A DNA stretch of 64,000 bases, taken from Escherichia coli. Lineage in GTDB: Bacteria > Pseudomonadota > Gammaproteobacteria > Enterobacterales > Enterobacteriaceae. The position numbers and the translations under genes are program-made. Within the stretch, counting starts at the first letter, position 1; the number at the start of each line of letters is the position of its first letter. Under the pieces are notes generated by a model. The model searched no databases, was not told the origin of the DNA, and saw nothing but the letters and a program-made list of their open reading frames with translations. Shown here piece after piece: positions 56,399-57,965 of the stretch. The stretch lies in assembly GCF_036507355.1 (NCBI RefSeq), contig NZ_AP027878.1; one strand, given 5' to 3'.

Positions 56399-57044
56399 TT
56401 ATTAACCTCATTACTGGTTGGGAAATAAGGTTGCGGTGCCGGGTGCTTCCCGGTGTCCTTTAGCTGGTTATCCACCGTGGACGGGGAAATAAGGAGAAAT
56501 AATGGACAGATATAACCATTTCCCCGCGTGCGCTTAGCCGCATTCACCGCAACGGAAAGAGCATTCCTGGTGGACCTGTAGATTGGGATATGAACCCGTT
56601 ACAGGAGAATGCTCTTACCTGTTACGTGCTCCGTTTCGTGGAGCTAACGGCGGGTGATCGGGCCGCACCAGACTGGACTTATTTCAGCGTTATGCTCATG
56701 CCAGAGAATCAAACTGTGATGGTCGGTGCTGAACTCCGACACAGGGTTGTAGCAAGCCCCGCAAAGCGCGCACTACTGTAGTTGCGGCACATCAGCCTGT
56801 GCATTCACCACAATGTTGAGAACACTGGTTGTCACGCTGCAACGCAACATTTATTCGTAGATTGGGATATGACCCCGTTACGCCAGTGTTCTCAACGTTG
56901 TAGTGCCGGTTACGGTTCCGGCCAGGCCTCTTCCTCAACGGGGTGTTCTCCATACGGACTACCGTTTATTGGTCGTTCCTGCGGTTTATGTTGTGAAGCC
57001 AGATGCTTATCTTCTGGTTGCTTCAAAGAGCTGCACTTCATCAC

Positions 57045-57128
57045 AACGGTAAGGGTACTTCGTAGGGATTCGAACCCTCTGCCAAGCTCGGCGATCTCCG
57101 ACGTCGCAAAATACCCTTACCTGTTGTG
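57045..57128 (-). ncRNA. tRNA-like structured element (T-arm-like AGGG-TTCGAAT-CCCT inside a long inverted repeat), not a canonical tRNA
   Basis: Minus strand has GGTTCGAATCC T-loop motif but no matching acceptor or anticodon arms; flanked by 17-bp inverted repeat CACAACAGGTAAGGGTA/TACCCTTACCGTTGTG. Confidence 0.35.
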
Positions 57129-57129
57129 C

Positions 57130-57205
57130 TGGTGCCGATTAACGGACTCGAACCGCTGACATCCTGCTTACAAGGCAGGCGCTCTACCAACTGAGCTAAA
57201 CCGGC
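57130..57205 (-). tRNA. tRNA-Thr (anticodon UGU)
   Basis: Minus strand GCCGGTTTAGCTCAGTTGGTAGAGCGCCTGCCTTGTAAGCAGGATGTCAGCGGTTCGAGTCCGTTAATCGGCACCA. Confidence 0.85.
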
Positions 57206-57207
57206 AT

Positions 57208-57283
57208 TGGCGATGGTGGATGGATTTGAACCATCGACCCGTTGATTAACAGTCAACCGCTCTAACCGCTGAGCTACACCATC
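57208..57283 (-). tRNA. tRNA-Asn (anticodon GUU)
   Basis: Minus strand ...GCTCAGCGGTTAGAGCGGTTGACTGTTAATCAAC...GGTTCAAATCC...CCA; two nt from tRNA-Thr. Confidence 0.85.
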
Positions 57284-57748
57284 ACTTGCCGGGTACGTCT
57301 CCGGCGAGGGCTTCCACCTCCGTATGCTTTTCGGCGCACCGCGCCCTGGCTGCAATTCGGTAACAGGGGATGCACAACCCTGGCTTCCAGCGTGATTAGC
57401 GCCTTCAGCATGACGGGATATACCCGTAAATTCGTGGAACTGTACCCAAAGTGCTGTTAAGCACCGCTGTTACGCTGAAAAGAAAACGCAACAGGAAAGG
57501 ACGCTGACCAACAGATGGCCCCTTCTCGTTCATCTGGTTAATCACACCAGCGCCCTTACCTGTTGTGCCTCCCCGTTCCCTAATACACAGACGGGGACAC
57601 TCTGCGGTCGATTTTTTGACGGGGGACGACTCATACCCCGTGGCATCTGGCTTCTTAGGCCGCTACCATCATCAGATCATCGTTTGCATTTACTTTAATG
57701 GTCAGTTTCTAAACCGCCGCAAAGTCGCTAACCATGACGAAAACCCTG

Positions 57749-57774
57749 AAAAAAACGCCCACCCGAAGATGGGC
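57749..57774 (-). terminator. Strong intrinsic terminator in the ban/tRNA operon leader
   Basis: Minus strand GCCCAUC-UUCG-GGUGGGC then seven U; about 160-180 nt downstream of the operator-overlapped promoter. Confidence 0.6.
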
Positions 57775-57937
57775 AAACTGGAAGCTCGTAACGCACTTCG
57801 GCGTTGCCACTTAGGCGCATGGTCAACCTGGCAACTCGGTGGTTTGTCTGGGAGGACTAGGCCCAGCCATGCTTACCGCCGCGCCTGTCGCGGCTAACAG
57901 CTAAATCGCTCTATAAATCACGATTCATTGAGGCGAT

Positions 57938-57965
57938 ATTACACTAATAAATTTATTAGAGCAAT
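57938..57965. promoter_or_regulatory. Bipartite C1 operator overlapping the promoter of the tRNA/ban operon
   Basis: Perfect AAATTTATTAGAGCAAT (57949-57965) overlapping a second inverted copy (57938-57954); minus-strand -35 TTGCTC and -10 TAATAT with 17-bp spacer. Confidence 0.8.

What the first reader, a model, noticed from the sequence alone, without database searches (positions are those of the whole stretch)
56568..56900. Direct repeats and a long inverted repeat in the spacer between the tRNA pair and tciA
A 26-nt element (TGTAGATTGGGATATGAACCCGTTAC at 56568-56593 and CGTAGATTGGGATATGACCCCGTTAC at 56856-56881) is repeated 288 bp apart. The second copy sits in the loop of an 18-bp inverted repeat (56811-56828 and 56883-56900, 17/18 complementary). 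Both copies contain an in-frame ATG encoding DWDM(N/T)PL, so they could be duplicated gene starts, but no convincing ORF follows on the transcribed minus strand. The structure is unexplained by the genes: RNA processing sites, a protein-binding module or a remnant of recombination are all possible.
Basis: seen in the sequence. Interest (0 to 1): 0.45.

Follow-up and report, generated by a model that had tools for sequence, protein, structure and literature searches.

The report
Repeated RNA hairpin modules in P1
The repeat and the inverted repeat are real and are pieces of two of four related long-stem RNA hairpins in the untranslated leader of phage P1's ban operon. These hairpins belong to a widespread family I did not find described, which sits between tRNAs and other small RNAs in many phages. 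What they do has not been tested.

Summary
The window is phage P1 (100% identity). The inverted repeat is 23 nt (56806-56828 / 56883-56905).

Each repeat copy is the apical hairpin of a long-stem module on the transcribed minus strand. P1 has four such modules: D, A, B and C.

They belong to a family with a conserved stem of about 19 bp (CACAAC-A-GGUAAGAGCAUUG...CAGUGCUCUUUCC-GUUGUG) around a hypervariable interior of 27-258 nt. I found 371 copies in 237 loci from P1-like, lambdoid/P22-like and lytic phages, including an Aeromonas phage.
- 10 of 19 stem pairs show compensatory changes.
- G.U outnumbers A.C 74 to 7.
- Every module near a tRNA is co-oriented with it (239:0).
- No Rfam family matched.

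The GenBank ORFs upl and plp that overlap the region are not conserved and are probably spurious.

My best reading is RNA punctuation or processing stems between co-transcribed small RNAs. This is inferred; the nuclease (RNase III or RNase P) is untested.

In passing I found an apparently undescribed tmRNA-like element (tag ANDDLMMVAA) upstream at 57745-57569. It is conserved in more than 600 phage records.

The parts
56857..56881 (-). Direct repeat copy 2. On the minus-strand RNA it reads GUAACGGGGUCAUAUCCCAAUCUAC and forms the apical hairpin (GUA/UAC plus GGG/CCC, 7-nt loop) inside module B.
56578..56602 (-). Direct repeat copy 1. It forms the same apical hairpin (GGGUUCAUAUCCC) inside module C. 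On the + strand it contains the ATG annotated as the upl start.
56806..56905 (-). It is a diverged family member with compensatory arm changes (UUGAGAACACUGG / CCAGUGUUCUCAA).
56548..56626 (-). Module C. Outer pairs CGUAAC/GUUGCG, bulged A at 56620, 13-bp arms 56619-56607 / 56566-56554; the interior holds repeat copy 1.
57042..57128 (-). Module A. It starts 2 nt after the CCA of tRNA-Thr. Arms are GGUAAGGGUAUUU / AAGUACCCUUACC. The interior has a canonical T-arm (AGGGUUCGAAUCCCU). The GG...CC core is 74 nt.
57487..57567 (-). Module D. Arms are GGUAAGGGCGCUG / CAGCGUCCUUUCC. It lies 88 nt after the stop codon of the tmRNA-like tag frame, which is the usual position for a module in other phages.
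56787..56802 (-). Small hairpin GCACA-GGCUGA-UGUGC after the tail of module B. The loop is conserved and the stem covaries in relatives (GCGCA/UGCGC, UCGCA/UGCGA).
   Evidence: read directly from the sequences
57130..57283 (-). tRNA-Asn(GUU) at 57283-57208 and tRNA-Thr(UGU) at 57205-57130, co-transcribed with the modules.
56432..56551 (-). STnc100-like structured leader of tciA. Its outer stem GUUGCGGUG (56553-56545) / CACCGCAAC (56438-56430) uses the tail of module C and competes with that module's outer 6 bp.
57569..57745 (-). tmRNA-like element, with the tag reading frame at 57687-57655 (ANDDLMMVAA, then stop). It is part of the same non-coding array.
56590..57159 (+). GenBank ORFs upl (56590-56781) and plp (56782-57159) on the opposite strand. 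They are probably not genes. plp overlaps module A and tRNA-Thr.

Best explanation
The repeat and the inverted repeat are substructures of two paralogous long-stem hairpin modules (B and C). Two more modules (D and A) lie in the same untranslated leader of about 1.5 kb of the P1 ban operon, which runs from Pban/Op72 to tciA on the window's minus strand.

A module consists of a conserved double-stranded stem of about 19-23 bp, with a bulged A and a U.U mismatch, closing a variable interior. In B and C the interior begins with the same 25-nt hairpin, which resembles a T-loop hairpin.

The modules sit between the small RNAs of the leader: a tmRNA-like RNA, then D, tRNA-Asn and tRNA-Thr, then A, B and C, then the STnc100-like tciA leader.

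The most likely function is RNA punctuation. The stems would be endonuclease targets or insulators that separate the co-transcribed RNAs and define their ends. One example is giving tRNA-Thr a 3' end that can be trimmed, because module A starts 2 nt after its CCA. All arms can pair with one another, so the tail of one module could also pair with the head of the next and enclose the RNA between them, as rRNA processing stalks do.

Shown here: the anatomy, family membership, compensatory changes, strand specificity, positions relative to tRNAs and the tmRNA-like element, and cassette-like mosaicism.

Inferred: transcription from Pban, cleavage, and the nuclease. RNase III is suggested by the helix length. 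RNase P is suggested by the unpaired base just before a G-C pair and by the T-loop interiors.
For: - Identity and annotation of the region.
- Four modules in P1. The minus-strand RNA folds are 4.5-7.5 kcal/mol more stable than the plus-strand folds, with z from -4.7 to -5.9.
- Family size: 66 distinct head-to-tail sequence variants among 98 complete head-plus-tail modules, out of 145 exact matches to the 15-nt head; 371 modules in 237 loci under relaxed matching.
- Stem covariation: 96.5% of cells paired, 10 of 19 pairs changed on both sides, 0 of 500 shuffles as good, and 35-61% paired when the partner is slid. A test on arm ends that were not used for selection gave 103 of 115 paired, against a shuffle mean of 91 and maximum of 100.
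- G.U 74 against A.C 7.
- The nearest tRNA is on the same strand 239 times and on the opposite strand 0 times. A module starts 2-3 nt after tRNA-Thr (once tRNA-Asn) in 93 modules, and directly precedes a tRNA in two others.
- A module head lies within 400 nt after the tmRNA-like stop codon in 120 of 161 cases, mostly at 78-89 nt.
- The same arrangement (promoter, tmRNA-like RNA, module, tRNAs) occurs in a lytic Aeromonas phage and in E. coli phage Sa179lw.
- In a P22-like prophage, modules lie in the non-coding late leader between Q and the holin gene.
- Mosaic breakpoints among P1 relatives fall at module edges.
- No Rfam family covers the modules.
Against: - No RNA end mapping or nuclease data exist for any module. 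The literature searches found nothing.
- The arms are conserved in sequence at more than 90%, far beyond what RNase III needs. This points to a sequence-specific partner, or to a need for all arms to stay mutually complementary.
- T-loop-like hairpins are strongly enriched in the interiors: 16 of 70 variants against 0.13 expected. One interior type (that of module A) is conserved under different arms. So some modules may be functional RNAs in their own right.
- The modules are dispensable. The repeat apex is deleted in phage Ro157c2YLVW, the segment between the two repeats is deleted in SJ46-type genomes, and modules A and B are absent from one contig.
- Phage P22 and the Sakai Sp5 prophage have leaders, with tRNAs in Sp5, that lack modules.
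- In a longer fold, the outer 6 bp of module C give way to the STnc100-like stem.
Confidence: 0.45

Rival explanations
1. The modules are autonomous small structured RNAs, tRNA-like or Y-RNA-like. The conserved stem is a platform for a specific protein. The variable interior, often with a T-loop, is the effector or decoy, for example for tRNA-modifying or tRNA-cleaving enzymes or for trans-translation factors acting with the adjacent tmRNA-like RNA.
For: - T-loop hairpins occur in 16 of 70 variants, from at least five unrelated interior types, against 0.13 expected.
- The GG...CC core of several types, including module A, is 74 nt, the length of a tRNA.
- The module A interior is conserved under different arms in L271.
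- Arm sequence conservation exceeds what pairing alone requires.
- A module follows the tmRNA-like element at a near-fixed distance in most of the 120 of 161 cases that have one.
Against: - ARAGORN and the Rfam tRNA and YrlA models do not match any module.
- Most interiors are unrelated in sequence and range from 27 to 258 nt.
- The loop of the repeat hairpin (UUCAUAU) lacks the A58 of a canonical T-loop (read from the sequence; T-loop consensus from general knowledge).
- No partner protein is known, and natural deletions are tolerated.
Confidence: 0.22
2. The conserved arms are DNA-level cassette boundaries. They would be recombination sites, either attC-like folded single-stranded DNA or short homology linkers, at which tRNA and small-RNA cassettes are exchanged between phages. 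The hairpin potential would then be incidental or serve recombination.
For: - Conserved arms surround completely unrelated interiors.
- tRNA content varies among P1 relatives: Asn or Arg, Tyr, Thr, Ser.
- Breakpoints fall at module edges; there is a 196-bp one-module insertion, a head-to-head deletion in L186 and a repeat-to-repeat deletion in SJ46.
- The form resembles attC: inner AAC...GUU, an extrahelical base, a variable centre, and a position 3' of each cassette (attC features from general knowledge).
Against: - No IntI-type integrase accompanies the modules in the contexts examined.
- The G.U excess is on the transcribed, top strand. attC sites fold on the bottom strand, which would predict the opposite bias.
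- The arms (13+6 bp) are short for RecA-type exchange.
- Stem covariation indicates selection for pairing, not only for identity.
- Recombination at repeats is expected whatever their function.
Confidence: 0.15
3. The two repeat copies are duplicated starts of real + strand protein genes: upl, and plp or a shorter plp starting at the ATG in copy 2, as annotated in the P1 GenBank record.
For: - GenBank annotates upl from the ATG in copy 1, and plp contains copy 2 in frame. Both frames are open in P1 and its closest relatives.
- One transcriptome paper lists upl among the genes upregulated in a dksA host (PMC8201110).
Against: - NCBI's PGAP pipeline annotates nothing under this region in the listed RefSeq P1-like plasmids; 650 E. 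coli genomes have a match.
- Neither protein has a Pfam family.
- plp overlaps tRNA-Thr and module A on the other strand. Its C-terminal half is entirely different in the L004-type (196-bp insertion) and L005-type relatives.
- The upl ATG is removed by a 13-nt deletion in Ro157c2YLVW. upl is absent from D6-type and SJ46-type genomes.
- The consensus scan found no promoter-like site on either strand.
- The G.U bias favours a structure on the opposite strand.
Confidence: 0.04
4. The modules are decaying remnants of tRNA genes or of past duplications, with no present function.
For: - T-arm fragments occur in interiors.
- tRNA-Ser occupies the place of the module C region in D6-type genomes.
- The region is dispensable in some relatives.
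Against: - Arms stay above 90% conserved with compensatory changes across P1-like, lambdoid and lytic phages, including an Aeromonas phage.
- The strict strand bias and fixed positions relative to tRNAs and the tmRNA-like RNA are not expected of decay.
Confidence: 0.1

Closest known systems
RNase III processing stems (rRNA operon stalks flanking 16S/23S; phage T7 R1-R5 sites; the RNase III/RNase E processing that releases DicF from the Qin dicB operon)
   Same: A helix of about 20 bp formed within a polycistronic transcript, placed between functional RNAs. Complementary flanks could enclose the RNA lying between them. The P1 leader is homologous to the dicF region of Qin (GenBank note).
   Different: No cleavage has been shown. 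The arm sequences are conserved far more than known RNase III sites, with a fixed bulged A and a U.U mismatch. The interior is variable cargo, often carrying a T-loop.
tRNA punctuation and tRNA-like 't-elements' (mitochondrial transcripts); RNase P hairpin substrates such as the 4.5S RNA precursor and the P1/P7 C4 RNA precursor (from general knowledge)
   Same: Structured elements interspersed with tRNAs in one transcript. An unpaired base comes just before a G-C pair at the stem start. T-loop hairpins are present in some members. Module A starts 2 nt after a tRNA.
   Different: No cloverleaf and no tRNA-model match. The stem is 13+6 bp, not the 12-bp acceptor/T stack. There is no 3' CCA.
Bacterial Y RNAs (YrlA/Yrn1)
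   Same: A long stem formed by the two ends plus a domain with tRNA-like features. Y RNAs are also reported in phages (general knowledge).
   Different: The Rfam YrlA model hits only the true tRNA pair, at 25.6 bits against a gathering score of 69. No rsr/Ro gene context was seen, and the stem sequence is different.
Integron attC sites
   Same: An imperfect palindrome with inner AAC...GTT, an extrahelical base and a variable centre of variable length, lying at the 3' side of each cassette in co-oriented arrays.
   Different: No integron integrase. The wobble-pair bias is on the transcribed strand. The cassettes are tRNAs and small RNAs in phage leaders.
STnc100 / PasD prophage small RNAs (Rfam RF02076; bioRxiv 10.64898/2026.05.13.724894)
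   Same: The element that follows module C (56551-56432) matches STnc100 model positions 31-147. It is found in the same prophage leader regions.
   Different: The match is below the gathering score (33-40 bits against 47) and covers the neighbour, not the modules. That preprint does not describe long-stem modules.

Membership tests
RNase III processing stem | An uninterrupted or nearly uninterrupted RNA helix of about 20 bp or more within the transcript | tested here: met
   Module B has 23 positions with one C.A mismatch and one G.U. Modules A, C and D have 6+13 bp with one bulge, and the helix often extends inward.
RNase III processing stem | RNase III-dependent cleavage leaving 2-nt 3' overhangs | not testable with these tools
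   No RNA-end data were available, and the literature searches found none.
RNase III processing stem | Position between separately functional RNAs of one transcript | tested here: met
   The order is tmRNA-like RNA, D, tRNA-Asn/Thr, A, B, C, STnc100-like leader. Module adjacency to tRNAs and to the tmRNA-like element is counted.
tRNA / tRNA-like element | Cloverleaf recognised by ARAGORN or the Rfam tRNA model | tested here: not met
   Only the three true tRNAs are called in the window. No module is hit even at E-values up to 10.
tRNA / tRNA-like element | Canonical T-arm (stem plus UUCRANY loop) | tested here: inconclusive
   Module A has AGGGUUCGAAUCCCU, and 16 of 70 family variants have such a hairpin. 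The repeat hairpin in B and C has UUCAUAU or GUCAUAU, which lacks A58.
Protein-coding genes upl / plp | Reading frame and start codon conserved in relatives | tested here: not met
   The upl ATG is deleted in Ro157c2YLVW. upl is absent from D6-type and SJ46-type genomes. The C-terminal half of plp is replaced in L004-type and L005-type relatives.
Protein-coding genes upl / plp | Recognisable protein family or independent annotation | tested here: not met
   No Pfam match passes its threshold. PGAP annotates nothing here in the listed RefSeq P1-like plasmids.
Y RNA (YrlA) | Match to the Rfam YrlA covariance model | tested here: not met
   The only hit spans the tRNA pair at 57146-57263, 25.6 bits against a gathering score of 69.
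Integron attC | Association with an IntI integrase and folding of the bottom strand | tested here: not met
   No integrase was seen next to the arrays. The G.U excess is on the top, transcribed strand.
Dispersed repeats (REP / ERIC / MITE) | Conserved interior, with copies scattered in host intergenic regions in either orientation | tested here: not met
   The interiors are unrelated. Copies are confined to phage non-coding leaders and are always co-oriented with tRNAs. Of 684 matched places in E. coli genomes, 630 are on plasmids and 54 on chromosomes; the one chromosomal hit examined lies in a prophage.
STnc100 (adjacent element, not the modules) | Score at or above the Rfam gathering threshold | tested here: not met
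   33.4 bits in P1 and 39.6 bits in D6, against a threshold of 47, covering model positions 31-147 only.

The most novel reading that the evidence does not exclude
The modules and the tmRNA-like RNA together form a mobile non-coding RNA cassette system shared by temperate and lytic phages of enterobacteria and Aeromonas.

In this reading the conserved stem is a universal processing or loading signal, comparable to the basal stem of a microRNA precursor. It would release or present variable cargo RNAs, among them T-loop or tRNA-like domains. The module that follows the tmRNA-like coding part could supply its missing tRNA-like partner. That would give phages their own split trans-translation RNA, with altered tags ending in VAA, MAA or AVA.
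Probability: 0.12. Interest if true: 0.9.

Novelty: new variant of a known kind. Interest (0 to 1): 0.6.

Why it matters
P1 is a model phage, and this interval has been annotated for about twenty years with two protein genes (upl, plp) that the comparative data do not support. The evidence points instead to an array of structured RNAs.

The hairpin family links the ban leader of P1 to the Q-dependent late leaders of lambdoid phages and to promoter-driven small-RNA and tRNA clusters of lytic phages. That implies a shared, exchangeable non-coding toolkit.

If the stems are processing signals, they explain how phage tRNAs and small RNAs are cut out of long untranslated leaders, and they offer a portable RNA-processing part. 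The adjacent tmRNA-like element raises the testable idea that many phages interfere with or replace host ribosome rescue. This is relevant to the old observation, recalled from general knowledge, that some phages depend on host tmRNA.

Tried and rejected
- Covariance model of the stem (R1).
- Rfam at permissive thresholds on P1 and 22 related loci. No family covers the modules. Weak microRNA-precursor hits only reflect the hairpin shape.
- A hammerhead-like core (CUGACGAG...CGAAAC) inside the module of L086. Rfam did not report it at the gathering threshold, and I did not pursue it.
- Coding hypothesis for upl and plp. Rejected.
- attC-like sites. Considered on form and rejected as a membership claim: no integrase, and the strand bias is the wrong way round.
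- Looked for the modules in well-studied genomes where RNA data exist. The two E. coli K-12 prophage stretches examined (part of DLP12, and Qin) hold only a tail-like remnant and the STnc100-like dicB leader. The P22 late leader has none. The Sakai Sp5 leader with tRNAs upstream of stx2 has none.
- Literature (8 searches, 5 papers opened). Nothing on these hairpins, on processing of the P1 ban leader, or on tmRNA-like RNAs of P1, lambdoid or Vi01-like phages. The P1 genome paper was not held. The search using 'tciA' was swamped by an unrelated acronym.
- Searched for the 25-nt repeat outside P1-like phages. Only P1-like contigs carry it in a module; the other 16-mer hits are chance matches in unrelated AT-rich contigs.
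Full report
**Identity and context**

The window is phage P1. Positions 56400-57300 are 100% identical to AF234173 and NC_005856. The finding lies in the interval between the tRNA-Asn/tRNA-Thr pair (57283-57130, minus strand) and tciA.

According to the GenBank record, this interval is downstream of the C1-controlled promoter Pban/Op72 (about 57935-57964) and upstream of tciABC, trnI and ban. The same record places two ORFs on the opposite (+) strand: upl (56590-56781) and plp (56782-57159). It also marks a 'dicF-like region' further upstream.

**Check of the observation**

- The direct repeat exists: 56578-56602 and 56857-56881, 24/25 identical, 279 nt apart.
The second copy is right.
- The 25-mer has no other match at up to 3 mismatches in the 64 kb, and none in 100 shuffles.
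- The inverted repeat is real and longer than stated: 23 nt, 56806-56828 / 56883-56905, 91% complementary.
- Copy 1 is also enclosed by an inverted repeat, 56554-56566 / 56607-56619.

**Anatomy in P1**

Read on the minus strand, the interval contains four long hairpins:

| Module | Coordinates | Notes |
|---|---|---|
| D | 57567-57487 | 88 nt after the tmRNA-like stop codon |
| A | 57128-57042 | begins 2 nt after the CCA of tRNA-Thr |
| B | 56905-56806 | contains repeat copy 2 |
| C | 56626-56548 | contains repeat copy 1 |

- A, C and D begin with ACAGGTAAG(G/A)G. That motif occurs at only these three exact sites in the window.
- A, B and C are followed by GTTG(Y)G(R)TGAA.
- The arms differ between copies but stay complementary: GGUAAGGGUAUUU/AAGUACCCUUACC in A, GGUAAGAGCAUUC/GAAUGCUCUUUCC in C, GGUAAGGGCGCUG/CAGCGUCCUUUCC in D, UUGAGAACACUGG/CCAGUGUUCUCAA in B.
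- Minus-strand RNA folds are more stable than plus-strand folds in all four: -41.6 vs -34.4, -50.7 vs -46.2, -35.4 vs -28.9 and -40.4 vs -32.9 kcal/mol, with z from -4.7 to -5.9.
- Module A carries a canonical T-arm instead (AGGGUUCGAAUCCCU).

**A widespread family**

- A chromosomal BLAST hit led to a P22-like prophage. Two modules lie in its non-coding late leader, between the Q antiterminator and the holin gene.
- Scanning IMG/VR for the 15-nt head returned 145 exact matches. Of these, 98 had a matching tail, giving 66 distinct head-to-tail sequence variants.
- Across all loci fetched, relaxed matching finds 371 modules in 237 loci.
- The consensus is CACAAC-A-GGUAAGAGCAUUG [27-258 nt, median 48] CAGUGCUCUUUCC-GUUGUG.
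- The interiors are unrelated in sequence between types, while the arms stay above 90% identical.

Stem covariation:
- 96.5% of cells form standard pairs, and 10 of 19 pairs have changes on both sides. The innermost pair is G-C in 13 variants, C-G in 12, U-A in 9 and A-U in 1.
- 0 of 500 shuffles reach any of the five measures. Sliding the partner by 1-3 columns gives only 35-61% paired.
- That alignment had been selected for pairing. I therefore repeated the test on arm positions not used for selection: 103 of 115 paired, against a shuffle mean of 91 and maximum of 100.

Strand specificity:
- Non-Watson-Crick positions are G.U 74 times and A.C 7 times, so the folding strand is the head-first strand.
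- The nearest tRNA within 1.5 kb is on the same strand 239 times and on the opposite strand never.

No Rfam 15 family matches a module, in P1 or in 22 related loci.

**Position within arrays**

- Modules follow tRNA-Thr (once tRNA-Asn) by 2-3 nt in 93 modules. In two loci a module directly precedes a tRNA.
- A module head lies within 400 nt after the stop codon of the tmRNA-like frame in 120 of 161 cases, mostly at 78-89 nt.
- In E. coli phage Sa179lw and Aeromonas phage pIS4-A, a sigma-70-like promoter (read from the sequence) drives the tmRNA-like RNA and then a module. An STnc100-like element follows in Sa179lw, and tRNAs follow in pIS4-A.
- In P1, the tail of module C (GUUGCGGUG) is also the 5' strand of the outer stem of the STnc100-like leader of tciA (56551-56432). 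In a 251-nt fold that stem replaces the outer 6 bp of module C, while the 13-bp core persists.
- The same leader type precedes dicB, immediately after dicF, in the K-12 Qin prophage.

**Variation among P1 relatives**

- The interval is mosaic. tRNA content varies: Asn or Arg, with or without Tyr, Thr, with or without Ser.
- A 196-bp insertion adds one more module in many plasmids.
- D6-type genomes carry a tRNA-Ser cassette with its own module in place of the module C and upl region.
- Breakpoints fall at module edges.
- SJ46-type genomes have deleted exactly the 279 nt between the two repeat copies. This fuses the 5' half of B to the 3' half of C.
- Ro157c2YLVW has lost 13 nt, the GGG-loop-CCC apex of copy 1.
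- One contig joins tRNA-Thr directly to module C.
- The repeat and modules B and C are therefore dispensable for viability, and the repeated parts act as recombination substrates.
- In module context, the 25-nt hairpin was found only in P1-like contigs.

**Coding rival**

- upl starts at the ATG inside copy 1, and copy 2 is in frame within plp.
- plp overlaps module A and tRNA-Thr. Its C-terminal half is wholly different in relatives with the 196-bp insertion or the Tyr-type cassette.
- The upl start is deleted in Ro157c2YLVW, and the whole ORF is absent from D6-type and SJ46-type genomes.
- Neither protein has a Pfam family.
- PGAP annotates nothing here in the listed RefSeq P1-like plasmids; 650 of 5426 complete E. 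coli genomes have a match to this region.
- The consensus scan finds no promoter-like site on either strand.
- I consider both ORFs probably spurious.

**Mechanism**

The data show a strand-specific, selected structure. RNA is the simplest reading, given the co-orientation with tRNAs and the position inside a transcribed leader. The structure is placed between small-RNA genes.

The best-supported function is punctuation. The double-stranded stems would be cut by, or shield against, host ribonucleases, so that the tmRNA-like RNA, the tRNAs and the tciA leader are separated and given defined ends.
- RNase III is suggested by the helix length of 19-23 bp and by analogy with rRNA stalks and the dicF region. 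DicF processing by RNase III and RNase E is general knowledge, not tested here.
- RNase P is an alternative. It is suggested by the unpaired A immediately 5' of a G-C pair, by the enrichment of T-loop hairpins in interiors (16 of 70 against 0.13 expected), and by the known ability of RNase P to cut hairpin precursors (general knowledge).
- Module A starting 2 nt after the CCA of tRNA-Thr would otherwise block 3' trimming. This gives a concrete reason for cleavage there (inference).
- All heads and tails are mutually complementary, so tail-to-next-head pairing that encloses the intervening RNA is possible. That would explain why arm sequence, and not just pairing, is conserved (inference).

None of the cleavage steps is shown.

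**Points against, and rivals**

- Arm sequence conservation, T-loop enrichment, and an interior type (that of module A) conserved under different arms fit a rival in which modules are functional RNAs or protein platforms.
- Conserved arms around swapped interiors also fit DNA-level cassette exchange. The form recalls attC sites, but there is no integron integrase and the wobble bias is on the transcribed strand.
- P22 and the Sakai Sp5 leader lack modules, so tRNA expression from such leaders does not require them.

**Novelty**

- I found no description of this family in Rfam 15 or in the papers searched. Those included work on prophage small RNAs in the same leaders: anti-sRNAs (PMC4104026) and Pas/STnc100 (bioRxiv 10.64898/2026.05.13.724894).
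- The P1 genome paper was not available, so an earlier mention cannot be excluded.
- I rate it a new variant of a known kind: a structured processing or spacer element in a polycistronic non-coding transcript.

**Noticed nearby: a tmRNA-like element**

- Upstream at 57745-57569 lies a conserved element whose core aligns with the 5' half of E. coli ssrA (P2a, the A-rich stretch, the tag frame and the hairpin spanning the stop codon). It lacks about 28 nt of the pseudoknot 1 region.
- In P1 the frame GCA AAC GAU GAU CUG AUG AUG GUA GCG GCC UAA encodes ANDDLMMVAA.
- Among 160 real copies the frame is always 10 codons, with 14 tag variants such as ANDDVVLMAA, ANEEMYLAVA, ANDEQFLAVA and ANDNTFLAVA. 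There is synonymous variation, and the stop codon is nearly always UAA (one further hit, ANLESIFFP, is a chance match).
- BLAST finds it in more than 600 phage records, including Ackermannviridae, N4-like phages, Chaseviridae and several siphovirus groups, almost always unannotated.
- Consensus folding gives 10 of 31 pairs with compensatory changes.
- ARAGORN calls no tmRNA, and the Rfam tmRNA models give only sub-threshold hits.
- No tRNA-like acceptor domain was identified.

Noticed in passing
window 57569-57745 (minus strand); tag frame 57687-57655: A tmRNA-like element. It aligns with the 5' half of E. coli ssrA and encodes a 10-codon tag, ANDDLMMVAA, followed by a stop. More than 600 phage records from unrelated families carry it, with 14 tag variants, always 10 codons, and covarying helices. 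ARAGORN calls no tmRNA, no acceptor/T-arm partner was identified, and it is almost never annotated. GenBank labels the overlapping 57739-57840 only as a 'dicF-like region'.
   Followed up: partly
window 56590-56781 (upl) and 56782-57159 (plp), + strand: The two ORFs annotated in GenBank are not conserved among P1 relatives, have no Pfam family, are not called by PGAP, and overlap a tRNA and the RNA hairpins on the other strand. They are probably annotation artefacts.
   Followed up: yes
window 56432-56551 (minus strand): The structured leader of tciA gives a sub-threshold match to Rfam STnc100 (33 bits against a threshold of 47). The same leader type precedes dicB directly after dicF in the K-12 Qin prophage, and follows a module in phage Sa179lw. 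Its outer stem competes with the outer 6 bp of module C.
   Followed up: partly
window 57756-57775 (minus strand), followed by a U run: A strong intrinsic-terminator-like hairpin (UGCCCAUCUUCGGGUGGGCG followed by seven U) lies inside the ban leader, just downstream of the dicF-like region and upstream of the tmRNA-like element. This implies either a separate short RNA or a need for read-through.
   Followed up: no
L002, L003, L005-L011 (P1 relatives): The tRNA set at this locus varies between P1-like phage-plasmids: Asn or Arg(UCU), with or without Tyr, Thr, with or without Ser(UGA). Whole cassettes appear to have been swapped.
   Followed up: partly
L248 (phage Cba120), about 895-963 and 966-1091: Downstream of the tmRNA-like element lie two tandem RNAs, each with a T-arm, a 7-nt acceptor-like 3' strand and an encoded CCA. 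Neither ARAGORN nor the Rfam tRNA model calls them.
   Followed up: no
L086, + strand 2169-2377: One 209-nt module has an interior containing a hammerhead-like core (CUGACGAG...GGGACGAAAC). Rfam did not report it at the gathering threshold.
   Followed up: no
window 51165-51206 (+ strand): A small hairpin has the same outer motif as the modules (GACAACAGG, 25 nt, CCGUUGUG). It was found only as a weak covariance-model hit (11 bits, E about 1) and may be chance.
   Followed up: no
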